A stretch of 44,479 nucleotides of DNA from a virus (Duplodnaviria; Heunggongvirae; Uroviricota; Caudoviricetes). The stretch lies in IMG/VR virus record IMGVR_UViG_2526164662_000049, one strand, 5' to 3'. The translations under genes and the position numbers were made by a program. Position 1 is the stretch's first letter. Each line of letters begins with the position of its first letter. A model generated the notes under the pieces. It saw only the letters and a list, made by a program, of their open reading frames with translations, ran no database searches and had not been told where the DNA came from. Of the stretch, positions 26,720-40,600 are shown in pieces.

Positions 26720-27331
26720 TTAAAGCTGCATCAGCCTTTCCACCAGTTTATCTCTGCGAACAACAAACCAACCATTGGCTCTCGCCAGTTCCAGCCATGA
26801 CTCAAGGGAAATAACAATATCATCATCCCGCAACTGAATTGTGGAAACAGTGACACCGCCTCGCTGATAACAGAGAACTCGCGTGTCGTAACTTTTCTGG
26901 CATGAAACTGGCGCTGACGGATCCTTTTGTCTGAAATAGCAGTCTTCCAGTCTTTCGAACACATCCCACGCCTGATCGGTTTCGAGCATTTTGGCATGAC
27001 GGCCTGCTCCGCGTTCTGTCCAGAGTATGAGGGAGCGGGCTTTCGGGGAAATTTGTAACCCTCTTAAAGATGGTTGCAAATTTTGTGAGTTACTTAAAGT
27101 AACCCGCAAATTTTGTGAGTAGTTTAAAGCTACCCGCAATTCTTTAAGGTCATTACCAACAACTTTGAAAAAGTGTTTCCCTTCAACGAAGCGTACTTTG
27201 TTCTCATGATGATTCTGGCGAATACGCACCGGCTCAGTGCCGTAAAGCTGCGCCAAAAGTTCGGTGGTAATAACAGGAATCTGGTTATGGGTGATCGGGG
27301 AGAGAGTTTCAACAGAAATTTGAGTTGTCAT
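26720..27331 (-). CDS. ORF6N/KilA-N-like DNA-binding domain protein (antirepressor-like)
   Basis: 203 aa; N-terminal ITTELLAQLYGTEPVRIRQNHHENKVRFVEGKHFFKV resembles ORF6N domain; contains internal tandem repeats. Confidence 0.55.
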   Translation of the reverse strand: MTTQISVETLSPITHNQIPVITTELLAQLYGTEPVRIRQNHHENKVRFVEGKHFFKVVGNDLKELRVALNYSQNLRVTLSNSQNLQPSLRGLQISPKARSLILWTERGAGRHAKMLETDQAWDVFERLEDCYFRQKDPSAPVSCQKSYDTRVLCYQRGGVTVSTIQLRDDDIVISLESWLELARANGWFVVRRDKLVERLMQL

Positions 27332-29113: not shown

Positions 29114-29365
29114 CTAACAGGATGCTCTGACTCGCAATTCATCCAGCAGTTTATCATTTCCCATAATGTCACTTACCCTCATCGGTAAAAAAATTGCCTT
29201 TCGACCATTACGATACATCATTGATTTTGGGATTTCAGGGAAGTAATCCATTTCGACTATAACTGACAGGTCATCACGACGTATGACTGCGTATTTGCTA
29301 CTAAATAGTTTCTTTATTTTTTCCACGATGCCTCCAGGTTTATAAGTACAAAAGGTTATATCCAC
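29114..29365 (-). CDS. Rem-like small protein
   Basis: 83 aa ORF between hokD and DUF1367-like gene, as in Qin prophage (hokD-rem-ydfU). Confidence 0.45.
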   Translation of the reverse strand: MDITFCTYKPGGIVEKIKKLFSSKYAVIRRDDLSVIVEMDYFPEIPKSMMYRNGRKAIFLPMRVSDIMGNDKLLDELRVRASC

Positions 29366-29601: not shown

Positions 29602-29757
29602 TTACTCCTCAGGTTCGTAAGCTGTGAAGACAGCGACCTCCGTCTGGCCGGTTCGGATTCGTACCTCGCAGAGGTCTTTCCTCGTTACCAGTGCCGTCAC
29701 TATGACGGTTAAACAGATGACGATCAGGGCGATTAACATCGCCTTTTGCTGCTTCAT
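29602..29757 (-). CDS. hokD: Hok-family type I toxin (HokD/RelF-like)
   Basis: 51 aa MKQQKAMLIALIVICLTVIVTALVTRKDLCEVRIRTGQTEVAVFTAYEPEE; terminator hairpin downstream at 29513-29535. Confidence 0.8.
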   Translation of the reverse strand: MKQQKAMLIALIVICLTVIVTALVTRKDLCEVRIRTGQTEVAVFTAYEPEE

Positions 29758-30003
29758 AGCCTGCTTCTCCTTGCCTTTCGGCACGTAAGAGGCTAACCTA
29801 CATTTGTGAGACATAGATTGGGCCTCAGATTAATGTTAAGCGTCTTGCAGGACGCGTAATGTTAACTGGGGCTTTTCTCTATCTGCCTTTTGGTGTTCAT
29901 GCCTGAGACAGATAGCCTCAAGCACCCGCAGCAATTCTACTTAACTCTCCTTTTCCCGCAAACCGTTTTTACCCGATATGGGAATTCCCATATCGTAATG
30001 AAT

Positions 30004-33174: not shown

Positions 33175-33921
33175 TTACTTCGCAATTCCTGGCTGACCAA
33201 CATTCGGACGCCAGCTCTCCCAGTTAAAATTCACCCATCGCCCGCCGTTCATGGTCATGCGATCCATAATCCGCTCGCCGAGCAATGTTTTCATGGCCTC
33301 ATAGTTCAGGTTTGTCAGCATCCCCACGCTGCGCATCGACGCTGTCCGGCGATCAACAATCTGGTGCAGCACCACCTGCTCGTTTTTCGTCTCGCGCTGA
33401 ATGCCAATTTCATCAAGAACCAGCAGATCCACTTCGCACAGCTCCCGCAAAAATTTTTCGCCTGACTGCCCGTCGTCATAGCTGGCGTGCAGGGCGCTCA
33501 TAACATCAGCCACGGTAACCACAATCACTGTCTGACCGTCTTTCAGCAGGCGATTCCCGATAGCTGCCGCTAAGTGATTCTTCCCGGTACCAGGTTTTCC
33601 GCTGAACGCAAAATTTGTACACCCGGTCATCAGTTCATCGGCGATGGATTTCGCCTGGCTTAACGCGTATCGCTGCCCTTCGTTCTGCACCTGGTAATTC
33701 GCAAACGAGCATTTGCGGTGCAACGGCTGGATGCCAGAGCGATTCAGGATTTTTTCCACCCGCAACTGACGATTCAGGCGGTTGATCTCCTCGCAACGTT
33801 TCTGGCCTTCAGCAAGTTGCCACTCGCGCCACTCCGCAACCGTTCTGAATGGGGCGGTTACATGTGGTGGGGTCAGTCTGCGGATACGCTCCAGAACGCC
33901 TCCTGTCGCAATATTTTTCAT
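33175..33921 (-). CDS. DnaC/IstB-like replication helicase loader (YdaV-like)
   Basis: 248 aa; Walker [16 protein letters not shown] and Walker B LLVLDEIG. Confidence 0.75.
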
Positions 33922-33927
33922 GGCCTG

Positions 33928-34716
33928 TTACCCCCTGAAGCCTGGCGGGATCGCACTGTCCGGCAACGAGACGGTGTTAACCTGTCGGAGCAACGTCTCA
34001 GGCCGAACACCTTTCGGCGCGAACAGGCCCTGGTATTCATTGGCGATACTGTGTCGAATCACCTGCTCAGGTGTAAAACCCTGCTGGCGGAATTTTTCCA
34101 GCTCCCGTATCGCCCCGTTAGCGCCCTGCTCCGTTCGAATCGGTTTTCGCAATGCCTGCCTGAACCGGACCCACTCATGCCAGAGTGTTTCCGGCAACCA
34201 ATCGGGCAGCTCAATAGCCTCCGGCTCAAATTTTTTAGACGCTCGTTTTTGGCGAGGGGGATTTAGGGGGAGATCAGTATTTATATCTTCCTCTTCCTCT
34301 TCCTCTGGTAACGCTTTTTGATCCATTTGTGTAACGCTGCCAGCGTTACCTTTTCGTTTCAGTTCGCGTATTTTTGTAACTCGCTCGTTTGTAACCGCCC
34401 GTTTTTTAGAGCTTTTCCCGTTATGACGTTCAAAGTTAGGTAGAGAAAGCCCACCGTCATTTTCGACCAGCCATCCAACCTGAATTAACGCATCAGCAAA
34501 ACCAGCCATAAAAGTGATGCGATCTATTGCACTTTTTGTAACGCCGCGAGCGTTACAATCTGCATTACCGTCTATCATTTGTTGATCCGCCCATGCCCAG
34601 AAGCGAATAACCTTCCCTAATGCGGCATCTGGATCAATATTCAGAATCTCAGCAAGCCTGAATATTTCCGGCTTATCCGGCGTAATAACCTCGAGCTTTA
34701 TCCAGTTTGAAGCCAT
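33928..34716 (-). CDS. replication initiator (O-like / YdaU-like) with acidic linker
   Basis: 262 aa; EEEEEE linker; gene contains 19 bp palindromic iterons; precedes DnaC-like gene. Confidence 0.7.
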   Translation of the reverse strand: MASNWIKLEVITPDKPEIFRLAEILNIDPDAALGKVIRFWAWADQQMIDGNADCNARGVTKSAIDRITFMAGFADALIQVGWLVENDGGLSLPNFERHNGKSSKKRAVTNERVTKIRELKRKGNAGSVTQMDQKALPEEEEEEDINTDLPLNPPRQKRASKKFEPEAIELPDWLPETLWHEWVRFRQALRKPIRTEQGANGAIRELEKFRQQGFTPEQVIRHSIANEYQGLFAPKGVRPETLLRQVNTVSLPDSAIPPGFRG

Positions 34717-34793: not shown

Positions 34794-35216
34794 TCAATGC
34801 ACTACGACAGAATCGCCGGGCGACCCACCACCGCTGAAATGTGCTTTCCGGTAAACGGCCTGGACTGCATCATCATGCGCATCAATTGCCGTACTCAACG
34901 CTTCCTGCGCCGCTAGTAATGCACGGCGTTCCAGGGTATCGAAGATGCAGAGTCGGTGACGCAGCTCGCGCGGAAGAATTGCCAGAACCGCAGGGATCAG
35001 TTTCTGAATTTTTTCCCTTTGCGCTTTCGTTTCACCTTTCAACCAACGGTGATAGATATTCTGCTGATTGTTCCAGTCCTTGCCTGGTACAAGGGGCAAT
35101 TCGCCGCCCCCCTGGCGCAGATATTCTTCAGTAATTGCGTTAGCGACCCACGCCTGCCCTTTTTCGGCTGCCAGGGCTAACAACACTGATTCGATGTGCT
35201 CATGCCTGATTTTCAT
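34794..35216 (-). CDS. CII-like / YdaT-like regulator
   Basis: 140 aa ORF immediately downstream of cro-like gene, Rac-like arrangement. Confidence 0.55.
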   Translation of the reverse strand: MKIRHEHIESVLLALAAEKGQAWVANAITEEYLRQGGGELPLVPGKDWNNQQNIYHRWLKGETKAQREKIQKLIPAVLAILPRELRHRLCIFDTLERRALLAAQEALSTAIDAHDDAVQAVYRKAHFSGGGSPGDSVVVH

Positions 35217-35458
35217 GAATCAACCGCTCCTATGCTGTTTTCGCTATGCTTACCGTCTGGGGGGGGGAATACATCGTCAAGTCCACAATGAGCGCCAAGC
35301 CGATTAAGGGTAGAAACAATTTTTCTGCACTCCTCTAGTCCAGGGGTACGAAAATTTGCTTCGTAATTTGCCAGTCGGCTTTGTATCCACCCTAACTGAA
35401 CAGCAAGTTGTCTTTGAGACAGCCCAAGCTGTTTTCGATATGTTGAAATTTTGTTCAT
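35213..35458 (-). CDS. Cro-like HTH regulator (YdaS-like)
   Basis: 81 aa; HTH LGLSQRQLAVQLGWIQSRLANYE; divergent from repressor gene. Confidence 0.65.
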   Translation of the reverse strand: MNKISTYRKQLGLSQRQLAVQLGWIQSRLANYEANFRTPGLEECRKIVSTLNRLGAHCGLDDVFPPPDGKHSENSIGAVDS

Positions 35459-35477
35459 TGAAAACCTCCGATGACAA

Positions 35478-35542
35478 TTTTAAACACATCTTGTGTTATA
35501 TGGTCAAGCTGTTTTGTGTTTTATGTAAATCACGATTCGTGA
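35478..35542. promoter_or_regulatory. divergent promoter/operator region between cro-like and repressor genes
   Basis: palindromes AACACATCTTGTGTT (35482-35496) and TCACGATTCGTGA (35530-35542); minus-strand TTGACC-N17-TTTAAA with operator in spacer. Confidence 0.45.
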
Positions 35543-35554
35543 TACAAGGATGCA

Positions 35555-35974
35555 ATGGAAAAAGAAAACGAAAAAATTGCCGCTAGTAGGCTCAATGACA
35601 AAATTGCAATGCGTCTTAAAGAGCGCAGGCAGAAGCTTGGTTTATCTCAAGGAAAACTTGCTGAAATCTGCGGATGGACGCAATCGCGTATAGGTAACTA
35701 TGAGGCGGGCAGCAGAAATGTTGGAGTGCATGACGCTGTCGTATTGGGAAAGGCTCTTGGCATATCTCCTCCTGAGCTCCTCTTTGGAGAACAGGAATCT
35801 TCTGAATTGTGGTTAAATGAATCCCAACGAAAACTTCTTGAGTTGTTTAACCAGCTACCGGGCTCAGAACAACAACGAATGATTGAGCTATTTGAAGTCC
35901 GGCTAAAAGAAATCGATGAGTATGTAGAAAAATATTTGAGAGGCAGGCTTAAAGATAATCCCCCACCGGAGTAA
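35555..35974 (+). CDS. prophage repressor, DicA/RacR-type HTH (no S24 peptidase domain)
   Basis: 139 aa; HTH LGLSQGKLAEICGWTQSRIGNYE; followed by terminator. Confidence 0.75.
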   Translation: MEKENEKIAASRLNDKIAMRLKERRQKLGLSQGKLAEICGWTQSRIGNYEAGSRNVGVHDAVVLGKALGISPPELLFGEQESSELWLNESQRKLLELFNQLPGSEQQRMIELFEVRLKEIDEYVEKYLRGRLKDNPPPE

Positions 35975-36003
35975 TGATCTTGCTATCACAGTAATATGCC
36001 AAT

Positions 36004-36030
36004 CAGCCCGCTATCAGCGGGCTTTTTTTG
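36004..36030 (+). terminator. rho-independent terminator after repressor gene
   Basis: hairpin cagcccgct-atc-agcgggct followed by TTTTTTT. Confidence 0.55.
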
Positions 36031-36056
36031 TACCATCATCATATGACACCCACCAC

Positions 36057-36100
36057 AAAACACATTTCGTGTTGACACAAGAAAACACATTGTGTTTAAT
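36057..36100 (+). promoter_or_regulatory. pL-like early promoter with operator palindromes
   Basis: AACACATTTCGTGTT and AACACATTGTGTT flanking/overlapping TTGACA-N17-TTTAAT. Confidence 0.45.
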
Positions 36101-36280
36101 AGGCATATCCAAACAACGCCCCACCAGAGAACGGCAGGACAATACCTCGAGTTATCCAGCCACTGAACAGGGCTAAGTAGCCAGCCTGAGGCATACGAAC
36201 ATGACGGCAGTTGTTGATTGATACAAAGCGCAGTAGATAAAACGTTCCGCCACCCGGCGTTAAGGGGAAATGAGGTCAAC

Positions 36281-36433
36281 ATGGATACTATCGATCTTGG
36301 CAACAACGAATCTCTGGTATGTGGCGTGTTTCCCAATCAGAACGGCACATTCACCGCCATGACGTATACCAAAAGCAAATCGTTTAAAACCGAAGCTGGC
36401 GCACGTCGCTGGCTTGCCAAAAATACCAGCTAA
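36281..36433 (+). CDS. YdaF-like small protein (DUF1391-like)
   Basis: 50 aa from MDTIDLGNNESLVCGVF with GAGGT RBS; Rac-like position. Confidence 0.45.
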   Translation: MDTIDLGNNESLVCGVFPNQNGTFTAMTYTKSKSFKTEAGARRWLAKNTS

Positions 36434-36829
36434 ACCATTTATTGGATTAATTCAATATTCTTGCTGTAGGGGTATAGCCGAGGCCACCAAAGCCCGGAGG
36501 TGGTGAAATAAAACCGGGCACAACACGAAGGCGCATTTCCGGTATCCATAAAGAGTCGGTCTTGTCTGTTAAATTTAAATGGTGGGAGTGCGCCTCCGGT
36601 TGTAAATAACGACATTGCTATGTGTAGTCTTTGGCGGCATCAGTTCTACTCCGTGGCTGCCCTGCCGCCCCTTTTTAAAGTGAATTTTGTGATGCGGTGA
36701 ATGCGGCTAAGCGCACGCGGCACAGTTAAAAGCATCAGTGTTATGGGTGGATTATCCGGCGTTAATTGTTAACTGGTTAACGTCACCTGGAGGCACCAGG
36801 CACCGCATCGACAAAATTCATTTGTAAAA

Positions 36830-37063
36830 ATGGAGATAATTATGATTGCTCATCACTTCGGAACTGATGAAATACCACGTCAGTGTGTGACTCCTGGCGA
36901 TTATGTTCTTCATGAAGGTCGGACATATATCGCCTCGGCAAACAATATTAAAAAGCGAAAACTTTATATTCGTAACCTGACTACAAAAACATGCATTTCT
37001 GACTGCATGATTAAAGTCTTCCTCGGTCGTGATGGTTTACCTGTAAAGGCGGAGTCATGGTGA
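36830..37063 (+). CDS. kilR: KilR-like cell-division inhibitor
   Basis: 77 aa ORF ([21 protein letters not shown]...); recalled similarity to Rac KilR; upstream of ydaE-like and racC. Confidence 0.55.
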
Positions 37064-37233
37064 TGACTAAGAAAATAAAATGTGCTTATCACCTTTGCAA
37101 TAAAGAAATTGAAGAAAGCAAAATCATTACAAGACCACTTCATTTCATGCGTGGAGTTATACCAACGACGGAAATGAAAAAATATTGTAGTGAAATCTGT
37201 GCCGAAAAAGACCAGATGGCACACGAACTTTAA
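37063..37233 (+). CDS. ydaE: YdaE-like small Cys-rich (metal-binding) protein
   Basis: 56 aa [16 protein letters not shown]...YCSEICAEKDQMAHEL; start overlaps kilR stop; not in ORF track (shorter than 60 aa). Confidence 0.45.
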   Translation: MTKKIKCAYHLCNKEIEESKIITRPLHFMRGVIPTTEMKKYCSEICAEKDQMAHEL

Positions 37234-37307
37234 TTAACTGACTATCCGAAACTGAATTTATGCCAGCAATGGCAGGGATTCGCTCAACCTTAATTAAGGA
37301 GAAAAAC

Positions 37308-37583
37308 ATGATTACCAGTTATGAAGCCACTGTTGTTACTACTGATGACATTGTTCACGAAGTCAGCCTGGAAGGAAAGCGTATTGGCTACGTGATTAAA
37401 ACAGAAAATAAAGAAACCCCTTTCACTGTGGTTGATATCGACGGTCCATCAGGCAACGTTAAAACGCTTAACGAAGGCGTCAAAAAAATGTGCCTGGTGC
37501 ATATCGGAAAGAATCTGCCCGCAGAAAAAAAAGCCGAATTTCTGGCAACTCTGATTGCAATGAAATTAAAAGGTGAAATCTGA
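37308..37583 (+). CDS. racC: RacC-like protein
   Basis: 91 aa from MITSYEATVVTTDD with AGGAG RBS; matches recalled Rac RacC. Confidence 0.65.
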   Translation: MITSYEATVVTTDDIVHEVSLEGKRIGYVIKTENKETPFTVVDIDGPSGNVKTLNEGVKKMCLVHIGKNLPAEKKAEFLATLIAMKLKGEI

Positions 37584-37683
37584 AAGAAATAGCCTGCGTA
37601 TGGCGCAGGCTATGAACAGTGTGTATCCGGCAAGATTATTCACTGAACAAACGAATTTTAATCTGAGTTGAGGTTAAAAAACA

Positions 37684-40600
37684 ATGAGCACCGATAAACA
37701 AGTTTACCCACTGTATTACGAAGCAAAAAATGACAAAGTAAGAAAACGTCTCGGTATTAAAGGCGGTTTTTACTGGGCTGAAGCGAAAAAATTATCCATT
37801 GCCATCTCCCGTGGTGCTGTTGCGATTGACGATGCTGGCTACGATGAAGATGACTTCAAAAAACCTGTTCGCGTCAATTTGCCCGTTGTTGATGACCTCC
37901 CGCCAGAAGGCGTATTTGATACGGAATTCTGCAACCGTTACGAAAAAGGCGGGGAAGATGGCATCACAATGGTATTTATCGCGCCCTCACCCTCTGCGCA
38001 GGGCAAACCAGCCGGCACTGACAACACCAATGTTAATGGCGAAGACATGACGGAGATTGAGGAGAATATGCTACTCCCGATTTCTGGCCAGGAGCTGCCC
38101 ATTCGCTGGCTTGCTCAACACGGCAGCGAAAAACCGGTAACGCACGTTTCACGCGACGAACTCCAGGCATTACACATTGCACGGGCCGAGGAACTACCAG
38201 CTGTTACTGCCCTGGCTGTTTCCCACAAAACCAGCCTGCTCGATCCGCTGGAAATTCGCGATCTCCACAAACTGGTGCGTGATACTGACAGAGTTTTCCC
38301 TAATCCAGGCAATTCAAGCCTGGGGCTGATGACTGCTTTTTTCGAAGCATACATGAACGCAGACTACACCGATCGCGGTCTGCTGACAAAAGAGTGGATG
38401 AAAGAAAATCGTGTTTCACGCATCACGCGCACGGCTTCCTGCGCTAATGCTGGCGGCGGGAACCTCACCGATCGCGGCGAAGGTTTCGTTCACGATCTGA
38501 CGTCACTGGCGCGCGACGTAGCCACTGGCGTACTGGCTCGTTCAATGGACGTGGACATTTATAACCTTCATCCGGCACACGCTAAACGTGTCGAGGAAAT
38601 TATCGCTGAAAATAAACCGCCCTTTTCTGTTTTCCGCGACAAATTCATCACCATGCCTGGCGGGCTGGATTATTCCCGCGCCATCGTGGTTGCGTCCGTA
38701 AAAGAAGCACCAATTGGGATCGAGGTTATCCCCGCACACGTCACTGAATATCTGAACAAAGTACTGACTGAAACTGATCATGCCAACCCTGATCCGGAAA
38801 TCGTGGATATTGCCTGCGGTCGTTCCTCTGCCCCGATGCCGCAGCGTGTAACAGAAGAAGAAAAACAGGATGATGAAGAAAAACTGCAACCATCTTGCGC
38901 AATGGCAGATGAACAGGCAACGGCTGAAACAGTGGAACCGGATGCAACTGAACATCATCAGGACACGCAGCCGCTGGATGCTCAGTCACAGGTAAATTCT
39001 GTTGATGCGAAATATCAGAAACTGCGGGCAGAACTCCATGAAGCCCGGAAAAACATTCCGCCCAAAAATCCTGTCGATGCAGATAAATTACTGGCTGCCT
39101 CTCGCGGAGAATTTGTTGAAGGGATTAGCGACCCGAATGATCCGAAATGGGTTAAGGGGATCCAGACCCGCGACTCCGTGTACCAGAATCAGCCAGAAAC
39201 GGAACAGAACGACCCAAATACGCAACAAAACGAGCCAGAAACGAAACAGCCTGAGCCAGTAGTGCAACAACAGGAAACGGAGAAAGTTTGCACCGCCTGC
39301 GGTAAGGCTGGCGGCGGCAACTGTCCTGACTGTGGCGCGGTGATGGGCGACGCAACGTATCAGAAAACCTTTAATGAAGAAAATCAGAATGAATATCAGG
39401 AAAAAGGTCTGGAGGAAATGGAAGGTGCTGAACATCCGCACAAGGAGAACGCTGGCAGCAATCCGCATTGCGATTGCAGTGATGAAGCTGGTGAAGCGAC
39501 AGCACCTGTAGTAACTGAAATCATGTGGCCGTCATATTTCGAGCCTGGCCGCTATGAAAACCTCCCGAACGAGGTTTATCACTCCGCCAACGGAATAAGC
39601 AGCACAATGCTGAAGGATGCCCGCATCAGCCTGATGTATTACCACGGACGGCACATTGCCGGAACTATTCCGAGCGAGGAAAGTGATGCATTGCTGCGTG
39701 GGCGGATTATTCACAGCTATGTTCTGGAAACGGATAAATTCGCTGATGAGTATGCCATTCCGGTACCGGTTCCTGAATATGTGGTTACTACTTCTAACGA
39801 ACTGATCGCCATCATTAAAAAACACAATGCCAGTCTGCCAGCACCGATGACACCAGAGCAGATGAAAGAGTGGATCGAAAGCTACAACAGCACTCTTATA
39901 CAGCCACTGTCGGTAAGTGCCTGGGCCGAAGAAACAGGCATCCTTTACGGTTCGCTTCCGGAGGAATTCCGGCGTATTCCTGAGGGGGAAAAATACACAG
40001 CATCAGCAATGAAAGCCTGTATTAAAGAATACAACGCAAACCTCCCTCCTCTGTTGAAAACCAGTGGATCACGGGAGCAACTTCTGGAGCAAATTGAAAC
40101 TGTAGATCCAGAACTGGCAAAAAAAGAACGTGCTAAATCTTTGCCTTACAACATCAGTGGCACAAAAGAGCAATTAACCGAAATCGCACGGAAAATTCGC
40201 CCGGAACTGGTGACACTGGAAGACTGGCAAAAACGCCAGCAAGAAGAAAACGCCGGGAAAACGTTTATCAGTCCGGATATGTATGAACAGGCAAAAAATA
40301 TTCACGCTGCACTGCAAAACAATACCGATGCAGCAAGGCTACTCAACCACCCGGATCGCAAATCTGAAATCAGCTATTTCGGGTTTGATGAAGAAACCGG
40401 GCTGGAAATCAGGGTCCGTCCTGATATCGAAATCCGGCTGCCATACGAAAGCATTTGCGCCGACGTGAAGTCAGTCAGCCTCGGTTATGTGCGACAGGAA
40501 CGACTGAAAGATCGCCTGCACCGTGAAATTATTGAGCGTGATTATCACCTCAGCGCAGCAATGTATTGCGATGTGGCAAACCTGGACAAATTTTTCTGGA

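What the first reader, a model, noticed from the sequence alone, without database searches (positions are those of the whole stretch)
35478..36100. Immunity region with lambda-like operator logic but a DicA/RacR-type repressor
The repressor gene is flanked by related palindromes AACACA-N3/4-TGTGTT: one in the spacer of the cro-side promoter (35482-35496) and two at the rightward early promoter (36059-36073, 36084-36096). A different palindrome TCACGATTCGTGA sits near the repressor start. The repressor lacks an S24 autopeptidase domain, so induction probably needs an antirepressor or other trigger, and the ORF6N-like protein elsewhere in the prophage is one candidate.
Basis: partly seen in the sequence, partly recalled or inferred. 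Interest (0 to 1): 0.4.

Follow-up and report, generated by a model that had tools for sequence, protein, structure and literature searches.

The report
Prophage immunity switch with phased operators
This is the on/off switch of a Rac-like lambdoid prophage of E. coli: a small DicA-like repressor that cannot cut itself, a Cro-like partner, and five evenly spaced operator sites. It is an uncharacterised specificity of an already well-described kind of switch.

Summary
The sequence elements are real, and comparison with relatives shows they are conserved. The description needs correcting.

**Operators.** They are 15-bp sites, AACAC-N5-GTGTT (equivalently AACACR-N3-YGTGTT), spaced 23 bp apart.
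- Three lie between the repressor and cro-like genes: O1, half-site O2, and O3.
- Two lie at the promoter downstream of the repressor gene.
- The "different" palindrome TCACGATTCGTGA is O3 of the same array. It overlaps a conserved extended -10 element that would start the repressor mRNA at its ATG.
The conserved site there is AAAAC-N5-GTGTT (36082-36096).

**Repressor.** It is 29% identical to DicA over its full length. It is unrelated to RacR, is modelled as all-alpha, and has no S24 domain.

**Induction.**
- The window has no LexA box, DinI homologue or Rem homologue.
- The ORF6N protein has a weakly Rem-like C-terminal domain.
- Its gene lies behind the Q-like gene's promoter and terminator, in a late position.
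- It was absent from that position in two of the three other prophages checked that have this repressor helix.

**Verdict.** This is a new member of the known Qin, Rac, CP-933P and Gifsy kind of switch. The most unusual feature is an identical Cro-like protein paired with two repressor and operator specificities.

The parts
35555..35974 (+). Repressor gene (139 aa). N-terminal 434/P22-c2-like HTH_3 domain plus a helical DicA-type C-terminal domain; no S24 peptidase domain.
   Evidence: Pfam HTH_3 4.7e-13 and no Peptidase_S24 hit. NCBIfam DicA model aligns at 15-133 of the protein and 4-131 of 135 in the profile, scoring 57 bits against a cut-off of 101. BLASTP to K-12 DicA gives 29% identity, E 2e-15. 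BLASTP to RacR gives E 2.1. AlphaFold2 model has pLDDT 87 and is all-alpha, with C-terminal helices at 89-100 and 103-134. Foldseek matches only the HTH domain.
35213..35458 (-). Cro-like gene (81 aa, HTH_3), transcribed divergently from the repressor. Recognition helix WIQSRLANYEAN.
   Evidence: Pfam HTH_3 7e-10. The protein is 100% identical over the aligned residues (one-proline length differences aside) in loci whose repressor is only 60% identical.
34794..35216 (-). YdaT/CII-like regulator gene (140 aa).
   Evidence: Pfam YdaT_toxin 5e-11. phrog_163 'CII-like transcriptional activator' 1.5e-36. PDB matches 8bt1 and 3c4r, the YdaT structures.
35206..35223 (.). YdaT box cTGATT-N6-AATCAA, straddling the cro stop codon and the ydaT start codon. 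Candidate CII-like site of a PRE-type promoter.
   Evidence: One mismatch to TTGATTN6AATCAA, with 2 matches in the window against 0.26 expected. The same motif, at the same position, is footprinted by YdaT in CP-933P (PMC9986795). Conserved in related loci, and perfect in one of them.
35483..35497 (.). O1: AACACA-TCT-TGTGTT, centre 35490. Lies in the spacer and -10 region of the cro-side promoter PR.
   Evidence: All 12 half-site columns are invariant apart from one change in 35 distinct sequences. The three central bases differ from the majority base in 6 to 23 of the 35.
35506..35520 (.). O2: AAGCT-GTTTT-GTGTT, centre 35513. Only the right half matches the consensus; the left half overlaps the -35 of PR.
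   Evidence: The right half TGTGTT is invariant and the left half is variable. It lies 23 bp from O1 and 23 bp from O3.
35529..35543 (.). O3: ATCACG-ATT-CGTGAT, centre 35536. It overlaps the extended -10 of the repressor promoter.
   Evidence: Both half-sites are invariant in 35 distinct sequences, and 2 of the 3 central bases vary. The right half (CGTGATA) is kept in the heteroimmune pPE4/E9 type, which has the same Cro-like protein.
35477..35507 (-). PR-like promoter for cro/ydaT and the replication genes. The -35 is TTGACC (35507->35502). The -10 is TTTAAA (35484->35479, 17-bp spacer) or TAAAAT (35482->35477, 19-bp spacer).
   Evidence: Read from the sequence. The elements are conserved across relatives. 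The consensus scan did not call it.
35540..35548 (+). Candidate PRM: extended -10 TG-a-TACAAG. It predicts a transcript starting at or next to the A of the ATG at 35555, i.e. a leaderless repressor mRNA.
   Evidence: TGnTAnAAn lies 6-7 nt before the ATG in four diverged types: TACAAG, TAAAAG, TAAAAT and TAGAAT. Leaderless repressor mRNA is shown for PaaR2 and lambda cI (PMC8630535). The start site here is inferred, not mapped.
36005..36030 (+). Intrinsic terminator after the repressor gene.
   Evidence: Stem of 8 pairs followed by a T run.
36059..36073 (.). OLa: AACAC-ATTTC-GTGTT, centre 36066. It abuts and overlaps the -35 of PL.
   Evidence: Present in 63 of 63 related loci, with 13 different central pentamers.
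36082..36096 (.). OLb: AAAAC-ACATT-GTGTT, centre 36089. Lies in the spacer and -10 region of PL, in the same register as O1 in PR.
Evidence: Kept in 38 of 40 type-A loci. Centre-to-centre distance to OLa is 23 bp.
36072..36100 (+). PL-like promoter: TTGACA, 17-bp spacer, TTTAAT. It drives the DUF1391 gene, DicF, and the recE/recT-like genes.
   Evidence: Read from the sequence. GTGTTGA and GTGTTTAATA are invariant among type-A loci. Downstream genes were identified. The consensus scan did not call it.
26720..27331 (-). ORF6N-domain protein (203 aa) with a remotely Rem-like C-terminal domain. It is an antirepressor candidate, placed in a late, Q-dependent position.
   Evidence: Pfam ORF6N 4.5e-18. 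phrog_2379 anti-repressor 5.9e-92, and phrog_340 (the family that Rem matches) at residues 147-197. hhalign against the Rem family gives E 2e-4, probability 47%. A promoter-like site at 27605->27576 and a terminator at 27514->27498 lie between the Q-like gene and this gene.

Best explanation
The region 35206-36104 is the lysis-lysogeny switch of a Rac-like lambdoid prophage. It is laid out like lambda OR/OL, but its repressor cannot cleave itself.

**Repressor and its operators.** The 139-aa DicA-like repressor most likely binds as a dimer or higher oligomer to 15-bp operators, AACAC-N5-GTGTT, spaced 23 bp apart.
- At OR, binding to O1 and the O2 half-site blocks the cro-side promoter PR. This keeps cro, the YdaT/CII-like gene and the replication genes off.
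- At OL, binding to OLa and OLb blocks PL. This keeps the DUF1391 gene, DicF and the recE/recT-like genes off.
- O2 is centred about 42 bp upstream of the repressor ATG, the position from which lambda CI activates PRM.
- O3 is ATCACG-N3-CGTGAT, differing at half-site positions 2 and 6. It overlaps an extended -10 element (TGaTACAAG) that would start the repressor mRNA at its own ATG, making it leaderless.

**Cro-like protein.** O3 is therefore the site through which repressor synthesis is shut off. The Cro-like protein probably uses it preferentially, and excess repressor may use it too.

**YdaT-like protein.** It probably binds the cTGATT-N6-AATCAA box at the cro/ydaT junction and drives a PRE-type transcript towards the repressor gene.

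**Induction.** With no S24 domain, induction cannot go through RecA-stimulated self-cleavage. It most likely depends on a protein antirepressor or on bistable flipping, as in Qin, Gifsy and CP-933P.

**Shown versus inferred.** Shown by sequence analysis here: the sites, their phasing and conservation, their covariation with the repressor helix, and the domain content. Inferred: which protein binds which site, the transcription start points, activation from O2, and the induction route.
For: Gene order and families match a Rac-like early region: DnaC-like, O-like, YdaT-like and cro-like genes on one strand, then the repressor, a terminator, the DUF1391 gene, DicF and RecE/RecT-like genes on the other. 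153 of 5426 complete E. coli genomes carry this immunity region at 95% identity or more.

Operators:
- Exact AACAC-N5-GTGTT occurs only at O1 and OLa in the 44 kb window.
- The centres lie at 35490, 35513 and 35536, and at 36066 and 36089, always 23 bp apart.
- O1 in PR and OLb in PL occupy the same register relative to TTGAC(C/A)-N17-TTTAA(A/T).

Phylogenetic footprint: 62 loci (35 distinct sequences) share the recognition helix WTQSRIGNYE. In them the O1, O3 and O2-right half-sites are invariant, while the operator centres and the inter-operator bases vary. OLa is present in 63 of 63 loci with 13 different centres.

Covariation with the repressor:
- Citrobacter prophages have a repressor 64-66% identical, with helix WAQSRIGNYE. 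They keep AACAC-N5-GTGTT at the same positions in otherwise diverged DNA.
- The pPE4/E9 type has helix WSGSSRIANYE. It has [C/T]TCAC-N5-GTGAG at the same positions.

PRM: TGnTAnAAn lies 6-7 nt before the ATG in four diverged types.

No S24 domain. A Proteus homologue of the same HTH domain does carry Peptidase_S24 (E 1.8e-26), so the absence here is a real difference in architecture.

YdaT box.

Experimental precedents for every step exist in relatives: CP-933P (PMC8630535 and PMC9986795), Rac (PMC9638921), Qin (PMC10448788) and Gifsy (PMC3121763).
Against: - There are no binding, footprint or transcript data for this element. All protein-to-site assignments are by analogy and covariation.
- The consensus promoter scan did not call PR, PL or PRM. 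The -10 of PR is ambiguous (TTTAAA with a 17-bp spacer, or TAAAAT with 19).
- AAGGA five bases before the ATG could act as a Shine-Dalgarno sequence, so the repressor mRNA need not be leaderless.
- Conservation of the right half of O3, and of GTGTT at PR and PL, may partly reflect promoter function (TGn and the -10 hexamer) rather than protein binding.
- In the Salmonella 84%-identical group, only the right half of OLb is conserved and the PL spacer is 18 bp. Two full sites at OL are therefore not universal.
- The Cro-like protein is identical in phages with different operator sets. Its target is therefore uncertain.
- In Rac itself, YdaS was reported not to repress racR.
- No trigger for induction was identified.
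Confidence: 0.75

Rival explanations
1. Split-operator model. The repressor binds only the AACAC-type sites (O1, O2, OLa, OLb). O3 (ATCAC type) is a dedicated operator for the Cro-like protein. The repressor cassette (operators, repressor gene and PL operators; 35459-36104) can then be exchanged between phages without exchanging cro.
For: The Cro-like protein is identical in the window type and in the pPE4/E9 type, although the repressors are only 60% identical and the main operators differ. A Cro-like protein with the same recognition helix also accompanies both repressor helix types in more diverged backgrounds (L084 and the Salmonella group). In both types O3 keeps an ATCAC half-site and the sequence TCGTGATA. 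Across six types, position 2 of the O3 half-site changes together with the first residue of the Cro-like helix, but the sample is small.
Against: The right half of O3 is also the TGnTA of the extended -10, so its conservation may be promoter-driven. The Cro-like helix (IQSR..NYE) is nearly the same as the window repressor's (TQSR..NYE), which argues for shared rather than separate targets. In lambda, 434, CP-933P and Qin, both proteins use the same operators. There are no binding data.
Confidence: 0.3
2. AACACA-N3/4-TGTGTT palindromes are the repressor sites, TCACGATTCGTGA belongs to an unrelated regulator, and the ORF6N protein is the inducer of this prophage.
For: O1 fits AACACA-N3-TGTGTT exactly, and positions 6 and 10 are mostly conserved. 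The ORF6N protein matches PHROG anti-repressor families, and its C-terminal domain is remotely related to Rem, the DicA antirepressor. An ORF6N gene sits behind the Q-like gene in a Salmonella prophage with an 84%-identical repressor.
Against: The 36084-36096 palindrome has N1 spacing and is kept in only 7 of 40 relatives. TCACGATTCGTGA lies exactly 23 bp from O2, shares the CAC-N5-GTG core, and is invariant like the other sites. The ORF6N gene is behind a late-type promoter and terminator. No LexA box is present. The gene is missing from that position in the APEC O1 and O157:H7 17B6-2 prophages, which have the same immunity region. Similarity to Rem is weak: BLASTP finds nothing and hhalign gives 47% probability.
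Confidence: 0.2
3. The switch is a domesticated remnant, as in Qin, Rac and CP-933P. It has no dedicated inducer. It flips stochastically or under protein-destabilising stress through the repressor/Cro-like balance.
For: The window has no LexA box, DinI homologue or Rem homologue. Qin dicBp switches on spontaneously in about 1% of cells, and with urea or heat, independently of Rem and RecA (PMC10448788). The CP-933P switch is bistable (PMC8630535).
Against: The window carries what looks like a complete set of replication, Q-like, lysis, structural and integration genes. The ORF6N protein with its Rem-like domain is a plausible antirepressor. A viable phage (pPE4) uses the sister cassette.
Confidence: 0.3

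Closest known systems
CP-933P immunity region of E. coli O157:H7 (PaaR2 / YdaS / YdaT; PMC8630535, PMC9986795)
   Same: Small non-S24 repressor divergent from a cro-like HTH gene and a YdaT (CII-like) gene. Evenly spaced operators overlap PR and PRM. A second operator set lies at a PL promoter beyond the repressor operon. The YdaT box TTGATT-N6-AATCAA sits at the cro/ydaT junction. The repressor mRNA is leaderless (shown there, inferred here).
   Different: The CP-933P operators are 18-bp repeats with consensus GTTTAGTAA, and there are four of them. A paaA2-parE2 toxin-antitoxin pair follows that repressor, whereas here a terminator follows directly. The window YdaT is only distantly related (E about 1e-6). 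PaaR2 itself could not be compared because its sequence was not obtained.
Qin prophage DicA / DicC / Rem switch of E. coli K-12 (PMC10448788)
   Same: The repressor is homologous over its whole length (29% identity), including the C-terminal LELFxxLPxSEQ helix motif. Gene order matches: cro-like gene, repressor, then a PL-type promoter with an operator in its spacer, the DUF1391 gene and DicF. The repressor is non-cleavable and is relieved by an antirepressor.
   Different: The operators differ (TGTTAG...CTAACA type), and so does the recognition helix. DicC is unrelated to the window's cro-like protein (22% in the alignment). Qin has no YdaT. The window has no stand-alone Rem homologue. The window repressor scores below the NCBIfam DicA cut-off (57 against 101 bits).
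Rac prophage RacR / YdaS / YdaT (PMC9638921, PMC5700373)
   Same: Same prophage family and early gene order (YdaT, O-like, DnaC-like, DUF1391, RecE/RecT). Three 6-N3-6 inverted repeats (O1-O3) lie in the intergenic region, with O1 on the ydaS promoter and O3 at the repressor start.
   Different: RacR is not detectably related to this repressor (E 2.1). Its operators are (T/A)TAGGC-N3-GCCTA(T/A). YdaS is only 19% identical to the window's cro-like protein in the alignment.
Gifsy-1/-2/-3 repressors GfoR, GfhR and GtgR with LexA-controlled antirepressors (PMC3121763)
   Same: Small lambdoid repressors that are not cleaved. Induction works by a small protein that strips the repressor from DNA. Heteroimmune repressors share an antirepressor. 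Salmonella homologues at 84% identity exist.
   Different: The dinI-antirepressor-irsA operon with its LexA box, downstream of the replication genes, is absent here. It is also absent in the Salmonella prophage that carries the 84%-identical repressor.
Phage lambda CI / Cro / CII with OR1-3 and OL
   Same: Divergent PR and PRM promoters with three operators about 23 bp apart. The middle operator is centred near -42 of PRM. The third operator lies on PRM. A second operator set sits at PL. A CII-type activator site lies at the cro/cII junction.
   Different: The operators are 15 bp, not 17 bp. O2 is only a half-site. Two sites were found at OL, not three. The repressor lacks the S24 domain, so there is no RecA-mediated cleavage. 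The CII analogue is a YdaT-family protein.

Membership tests
LexA/lambda-CI type autocleaving repressors (HTH + Peptidase_S24) | C-terminal Peptidase_S24 domain with the Ser/Lys dyad | tested here: not met
   No Pfam S24 hit. The protein is 139 aa. The AlphaFold2 model is all-alpha with no strands. Foldseek finds no S24 match. As a positive control, the Proteus homologue L009 gives Peptidase_S24 at 1.8e-26.
LexA/lambda-CI type autocleaving repressors (HTH + Peptidase_S24) | N-terminal 434/lambda-like HTH DNA-binding domain | tested here: met
   HTH_3 at 4.7e-13. PDB sequence matches to 434, P22 c2 and lambda repressor N-domains. Foldseek TM-score normalised to the target of 0.87-0.90 to P22 c2 and C.AhdI.
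DicA family (NCBIfam NF007257) | Whole-protein score above the curated cut-off of the DicA model | tested here: not met
   57.2 bits against a cut-off of 101. The alignment spans 4-131 of the 135 profile positions.
DicA family (NCBIfam NF007257) | Same two-domain architecture: HTH_3 plus a helical C-terminal domain with the LELFxxLPxSEQ motif; about 135 aa | tested here: met
   Full-length BLASTP alignment to K-12 DicA, 29% identity, E 2e-15. The motif is conserved in 34 homologues.
DicA family (NCBIfam NF007257) | Relief of repression by a Rem-type antirepressor | tested here: inconclusive
   tblastn finds no stand-alone Rem homologue. The C-terminal domain of the ORF6N protein matches the PHROG that Rem matches (phrog_340, E 1.3e-5) and aligns to the Rem family by hhalign (E 2e-4, probability 47%). 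Function is not testable with these tools.
RacR family | Sequence similarity to RacR | tested here: not met
   BLASTP E 2.1 and 10% identity in the alignment.
RacR family | Operators of the type TTAGGC-N3-GCCTAA | tested here: not met
   The operators here are AACACR-N3-YGTGTT. The RacR motif is taken from PMC9638921.
CP-933P-type switch (repressor / YdaS-like Cro / YdaT) | YdaT-family gene after the cro-like gene, with a TTGATT-N6-AATCAA box at their junction | tested here: met
   Pfam YdaT_toxin and phrog_163. The box lies at 35206-35223 with one mismatch and is conserved.
CP-933P-type switch (repressor / YdaS-like Cro / YdaT) | Repeated operators at OR and at a second promoter (PL) beyond the repressor gene | tested here: met
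   O1-O3 and OLa/OLb are phased at 23 bp and conserved.
CP-933P-type switch (repressor / YdaS-like Cro / YdaT) | Toxin-antitoxin pair co-transcribed with the repressor | tested here: not met
   A terminator at 36005-36030 follows the stop codon directly, and there is no ORF between the repressor gene and PL.
CP-933P-type switch (repressor / YdaS-like Cro / YdaT) | Binding of repressor and Cro-like protein to the operators; leaderless repressor mRNA | not testable with these tools
   Only inferred, from a conserved extended -10 element 6-7 nt before the ATG.
Gifsy-type SOS-linked antirepression | LexA box in front of a dinI-antirepressor operon downstream of the replication genes | tested here: not met
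   No exact CTGT-N8-ACAG. One-mismatch hits are at chance level (13 against 12.65 expected) and none lies in the nin region.

The most novel reading that the evidence does not exclude
The exchangeable immunity cassette of this phage group consists only of the repressor gene and its operators (35459-36104) and does not include cro. One and the same Cro-like protein serves at least two repressor and operator specificities. It would do so by acting through a dedicated, conserved operator (O3, ATCAC type) on the repressor promoter. A late-expressed ORF6N protein with a Rem-like domain would then lock in or spread derepression to other DicA-type prophages.
Probability: 0.25. Interest if true: 0.5.

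Novelty: new member of a known kind. Interest (0 to 1): 0.3.

Why it matters
About 3% of complete E. coli genomes, including O157:H7, O145 and APEC strains, carry this exact switch. Relatives are common in Salmonella, Klebsiella, Citrobacter and Serratia, and all are annotated only as 'helix-turn-helix protein'. Defining the operator (AACAC-N5-GTGTT, 23-bp phasing) and its sister specificity ([C/T]TCAC-N5-GTGAG) has three uses:
- It gives a ready pair for studying how repressor specificity changes with a few residues of the recognition helix.
- It allows immunity groups among Rac-like prophages to be predicted.
- It shows which genes the repressor silences: DicF, the recE/recT-like genes, and the replication genes.

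The concept itself is already established by work on Qin, Rac, CP-933P and the Gifsy phages, so the gain is incremental. The exception would be if the shared Cro-like protein proves to act through its own operator.

Tried and rejected
- **The N1 palindrome at 36084-36096 as an operator.** Rejected. It is intact in 7 of 40 relatives, whereas AAAAC-N5-GTGTT one register away is kept in 38 of 40.
- **A third OL site 23 bp either side of OLa/OLb.** Nothing in the window matches, although Citrobacter has one.
- **The AAAAC-TTCTT-GAGTT match inside the repressor gene (35830-35844).** Treated as chance. Two-mismatch hits are common, with 20 expected.
- **RacR relationship.** Rejected.
- **LexA boxes.** None.
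- **Rem and DinI homologues.** None by tblastn.
- **The 70-aa GTG-start ORF at 29114-29326.**
  - It lies downstream of the hok-like gene, the position of rem in Qin.
  - It is conserved in other type-A prophages.
  - MAFFT gave 29% identity to Rem, but BLASTP and hhalign show no significant similarity.
  - It is kept only as a candidate by position.
- **Rfam on 35000-37700.** Nothing in the immunity region except a sub-threshold Trp-leader hit on the terminator.
- **Consensus promoter scan.** It called neither PR nor PL.
- **Attempt to obtain PaaR2 through a phage with a CP-933P-like YdaT (phage Tritos).** That phage has a different repressor with no BLASTP similarity, so PaaR2 was not compared.
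- **Precomputed Pfam PF27490 (recorded for Rem homologues).** It is not recorded for the ORF6N C-terminal fragments.
Full report
**What is there.**
- The window is a Rac-like lambdoid prophage of E. coli.
- On the minus strand lie a DnaC-like gene (33175-33921), an O-like gene (33928-34716), a YdaT/CII-like gene (34794-35216) and an 81-aa HTH_3 cro-like gene (35213-35458).
- On the plus strand lie a 139-aa HTH_3 repressor gene (35555-35974) and an intrinsic terminator (36005-36030). After them come a DUF1391 gene, a DicF sRNA (36619-36670), and RecE- and RecT-like genes.
- The 681-bp immunity segment is present at 95% identity or more in 153 of 5426 complete E. coli genomes. These include O157:H7, O145 and APEC O1. 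It is annotated only as helix-turn-helix proteins.

**Check of the observation.**
- AACACA-TTT-CGTGTT is at 36059-36073.
- AACACA-T-TGTGTT is at 36084-36096, with spacing N1 rather than N3/4.
- TCACGATTCGTGA is at 35530-35542.
- AACACAN{1,4}TGTGTT occurs twice against 0.02 expected.
- Exact AACAC-N5-GTGTT occurs only at 35483 and 36059 in the whole window.
- Single 6-bp-arm palindromes are not rare: 13 were found against about 11 expected. The case therefore rests on phasing and conservation.

**Re-reading the sites.**
- Written as 15-mers, the sites are:
  - O1 AACAC-ATCTT-GTGTT, centre 35490;
  - O2 AAGCT-GTTTT-GTGTT, centre 35513, with only the right half good;
  - O3 ATCAC-GATTC-GTGAT, centre 35536;
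  - OLa AACAC-ATTTC-GTGTT, centre 36066;
  - OLb AAAAC-ACATT-GTGTT, centre 36089.
- All neighbouring centres are 23 bp apart.
- On the minus strand PR reads TTGACC ATAT-AACAC-AAGAT-GTG|TTTAAA. On the plus strand PL reads TTGACA CAAG-AAAAC-ACATT-GTG|TTTAAT. O1 and OLb therefore sit in the same register in the two promoters.
- O2 and OLa both end on the -35 hexamer.
- The promoter scan tool did not call these promoters because of its -10 rule. They rest on my reading and on conservation.

**Comparative evidence.**
- Scans of genome and viral collections gave 98 related loci.
- Sixty-two loci (35 distinct OR sequences) come from E. coli and from a Salmonella group whose repressor is 84% identical. 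All have the same recognition helix, WTQSRIGNYE.
  - In these, the O1 half-sites show one change in 12 columns. The O3 half-sites and the right half of O2 show none.
  - The central bases differ from the majority base in up to 23 of the 35 distinct sequences at a single column.
  - The left half of O2, which is the -35 of PR, also varies.
- OLa is intact in 63 of 63 loci, with 13 different central pentamers.
- At OLb, AAAAC-N5-GTGTT is kept in 38 of 40 type-A loci.
- In the Salmonella group only the right half of OLb is kept, and the PL spacer is 18 bp.
- Citrobacter prophages have a repressor 64-66% identical, with helix WAQSRIGNYE. They keep AACAC-N5-GTGTT at OR and OL with 23-bp spacing, in otherwise diverged DNA.
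- Phage pPE4 and E. coli E9 have a repressor 60% identical, with helix WSGSSRIANYE. They have [C/T]TCAC-N5-GTGAG at the same positions.
- Operator sequence thus follows the repressor helix. This is the strongest available argument that these are the repressor's sites.

**O3 and the repressor promoter.**
- O3 differs from the other sites at half-site position 2 (T for A) and position 6 (G for A). Position 6 is A or G at the other sites, so position 2 is the main difference.
- O3 overlaps TG-a-TACAAG (35540-35548).
- Relatives have TG-a-TAAAAG, TG-a-TAAAAT and TG-g-TAGAAT, always 6-7 nt before the ATG.
- This looks like an extended -10 promoter whose transcript begins at the start codon. That has been shown for PaaR2 and lambda cI (PMC8630535).
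- Relative to that start, O2 is centred at -42 and O3 at -19, the lambda OR2/OR3 geometry. This is inferred, and an AAGGA upstream of the ATG leaves a leadered mRNA possible.

**The repressor.**
- It aligns with K-12 DicA over its whole length (29% identity, E 2e-15), including the C-terminal LELFxxLPxSEQ helix.
- It scores below the NCBIfam DicA cut-off, at 57 against 101 bits.
- It has no similarity to RacR.
- The AlphaFold2 model has pLDDT 87 and is entirely helical. It shows a five-helix HTH domain, a linker, and two C-terminal helices.
- Structure search matches only the HTH domain.
- A Proteus homologue of the same HTH domain (51% identity) carries a Peptidase_S24 domain instead. The family therefore exists in cleavable and non-cleavable forms, and this one is non-cleavable.

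**The CII arm.**
- cTGATT-TTCATG-AATCAA (35206-35223) straddles the cro stop codon and the ydaT start codon.
- TTGATT-N6-AATCAA at the end of ydaS is the site footprinted by YdaT in CP-933P (PMC9986795).
- The box is conserved in relatives.

**Induction.**
- The window has no LexA box, no DinI homologue and no stand-alone Rem homologue.
- The ORF6N protein (26720-27331) matches PHROG anti-repressor families.
  - Its last 60 or so residues hit phrog_340, the family that Rem matches. Rem is the experimentally shown antirepressor of DicA (PMC10448788).
  - A profile of that domain aligns with a Rem profile at E 2e-4 and probability 47%. BLASTP finds nothing.
- Against a role as primary trigger:
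  - The gene lies directly behind the Q-like gene, a promoter-like site and a terminator.
  - It is absent from that position in the APEC O1 and O157:H7 17B6-2 prophages, which have the same immunity region.
  - It is present in a Salmonella prophage with the 84%-identical repressor.
- I rate it a reasonable antirepressor candidate. It would act late, as reinforcement or as cross-talk to other DicA-type prophages.
- Stochastic or stress-driven flipping, as in Qin and CP-933P, is an equally good alternative.

**An unexpected point.**
- The cro-like protein is identical, apart from one-proline length differences, in the window type and the pPE4/E9 type.
- The diverged cassette runs exactly from the cro start codon (35459) to just past the PL -10 (36104).
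- A Cro-like protein with the same helix also accompanies both repressor helices in more diverged backgrounds.
- Either this protein recognises what the two operator sets share (the CAC-N5-GTG core), or it acts mainly at O3, which keeps an ATCAC half-site in both types.
- This is the most novel reading. It is untested, and conservation of the right half of O3 may simply reflect the promoter.

**Comparison with what is known.**
- The same design has been dissected in several relatives:
  - CP-933P (PaaR2/YdaS/YdaT, with PR, PRM, PL and PRE);
  - Rac (RacR, with three 6-N3-6 operators);
  - Qin (DicA/DicC/Rem; searches show the same layout with TGTTAG-type operators);
  - the Gifsy phages (non-cleavable repressors plus antirepressors).
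- The element here is an uncharacterised specificity within that kind, not a new kind.

Noticed in passing
window 35213-35458 (cro-like gene); cassette boundaries 35459 and 36104; loci L001, L004, L084: The cro-like protein is identical (apart from one-proline length differences) in prophages whose repressors are only 60% identical and whose operators differ. The diverged cassette starts exactly at the cro start codon and ends just after the PL -10. The immunity module that gets exchanged therefore excludes cro.
   Followed up: partly
L009 1510-2154 (Proteus myxofaciens): A repressor with a homologous HTH domain (51% identity) carries a Peptidase_S24 C-terminal domain in place of the DicA-type helices. 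It has ATCAC/AACAC-type operators and a related cro-like gene. This is a domain swap between cleavable and non-cleavable forms within one operator family.
   Followed up: partly
window 35206-35223: The YdaT (CII-like) box cTGATT-N6-AATCAA lies at the cro/ydaT junction. A further CTGATT lies 29 bp away on the ydaT side (lower coordinates), at about 35177. This suggests a PRE-type promoter region like that of CP-933P.
   Followed up: partly
window 36619-36670 (+) and 36660-36849 (+): A DicF sRNA lies in the PL operon (Rfam 60.9 bits, above the gathering score). It is followed by an STnc100-like match just below threshold (44.3 against 47 bits).
   Followed up: no
window 35259-35267: The cro-like gene contains a G9 run (C9 on the coding strand). 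Forty related loci have G6, one other has G9, and one has G5, which shifts the frame. The homopolymer is slippage-prone and changes or truncates the C-terminus of the Cro-like protein.
   Followed up: partly
window 26720-27331 (-), especially residues 147-197; about 27075-27140: The ORF6N protein is a fusion of an ORF6N domain with a domain remotely related to Rem, the DicA antirepressor. It also contains a 30-bp tandem duplication (LRVALNYSQN / LRVTLSNSQN) that is absent from a 99%-identical homologue.
   Followed up: partly
window 29114-29326 (-), next to the hok-like gene at 29602-29814 (-): A conserved 70-aa ORF with a GTG start and a good Shine-Dalgarno sequence (phrog_1813, unknown function) sits downstream of a Hok/Gef gene. 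This is the position rem occupies in Qin. It is 96-97% identical in other prophages with this immunity region, but has no significant similarity to Rem.
   Followed up: partly
window 36105-36280; hairpin 36141->36117 (-): The PL leader is 100% identical between the two immunity types. It contains a terminator-like hairpin on the minus strand just after the predicted PL start. Its function is unknown. It may insulate against leftward transcription, for example from sieB in relatives.
   Followed up: no
window 35401-35430 and 35634-35663: A 30-nt inverted repeat (83% complementary) links the cro-like and repressor genes. It reflects near-identical coding of their helix-turn-helix segments (LGLSQ...GW.QSR..NYEA), so the two DNA-binding domains are paralogous.
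   Followed up: partly
L007 and L008, downstream of the repressor gene (Citrobacter): The Citrobacter relatives have three 23-bp-phased AACAC sites at OL, the third lying downstream of the -10. The window has two.
   Followed up: no
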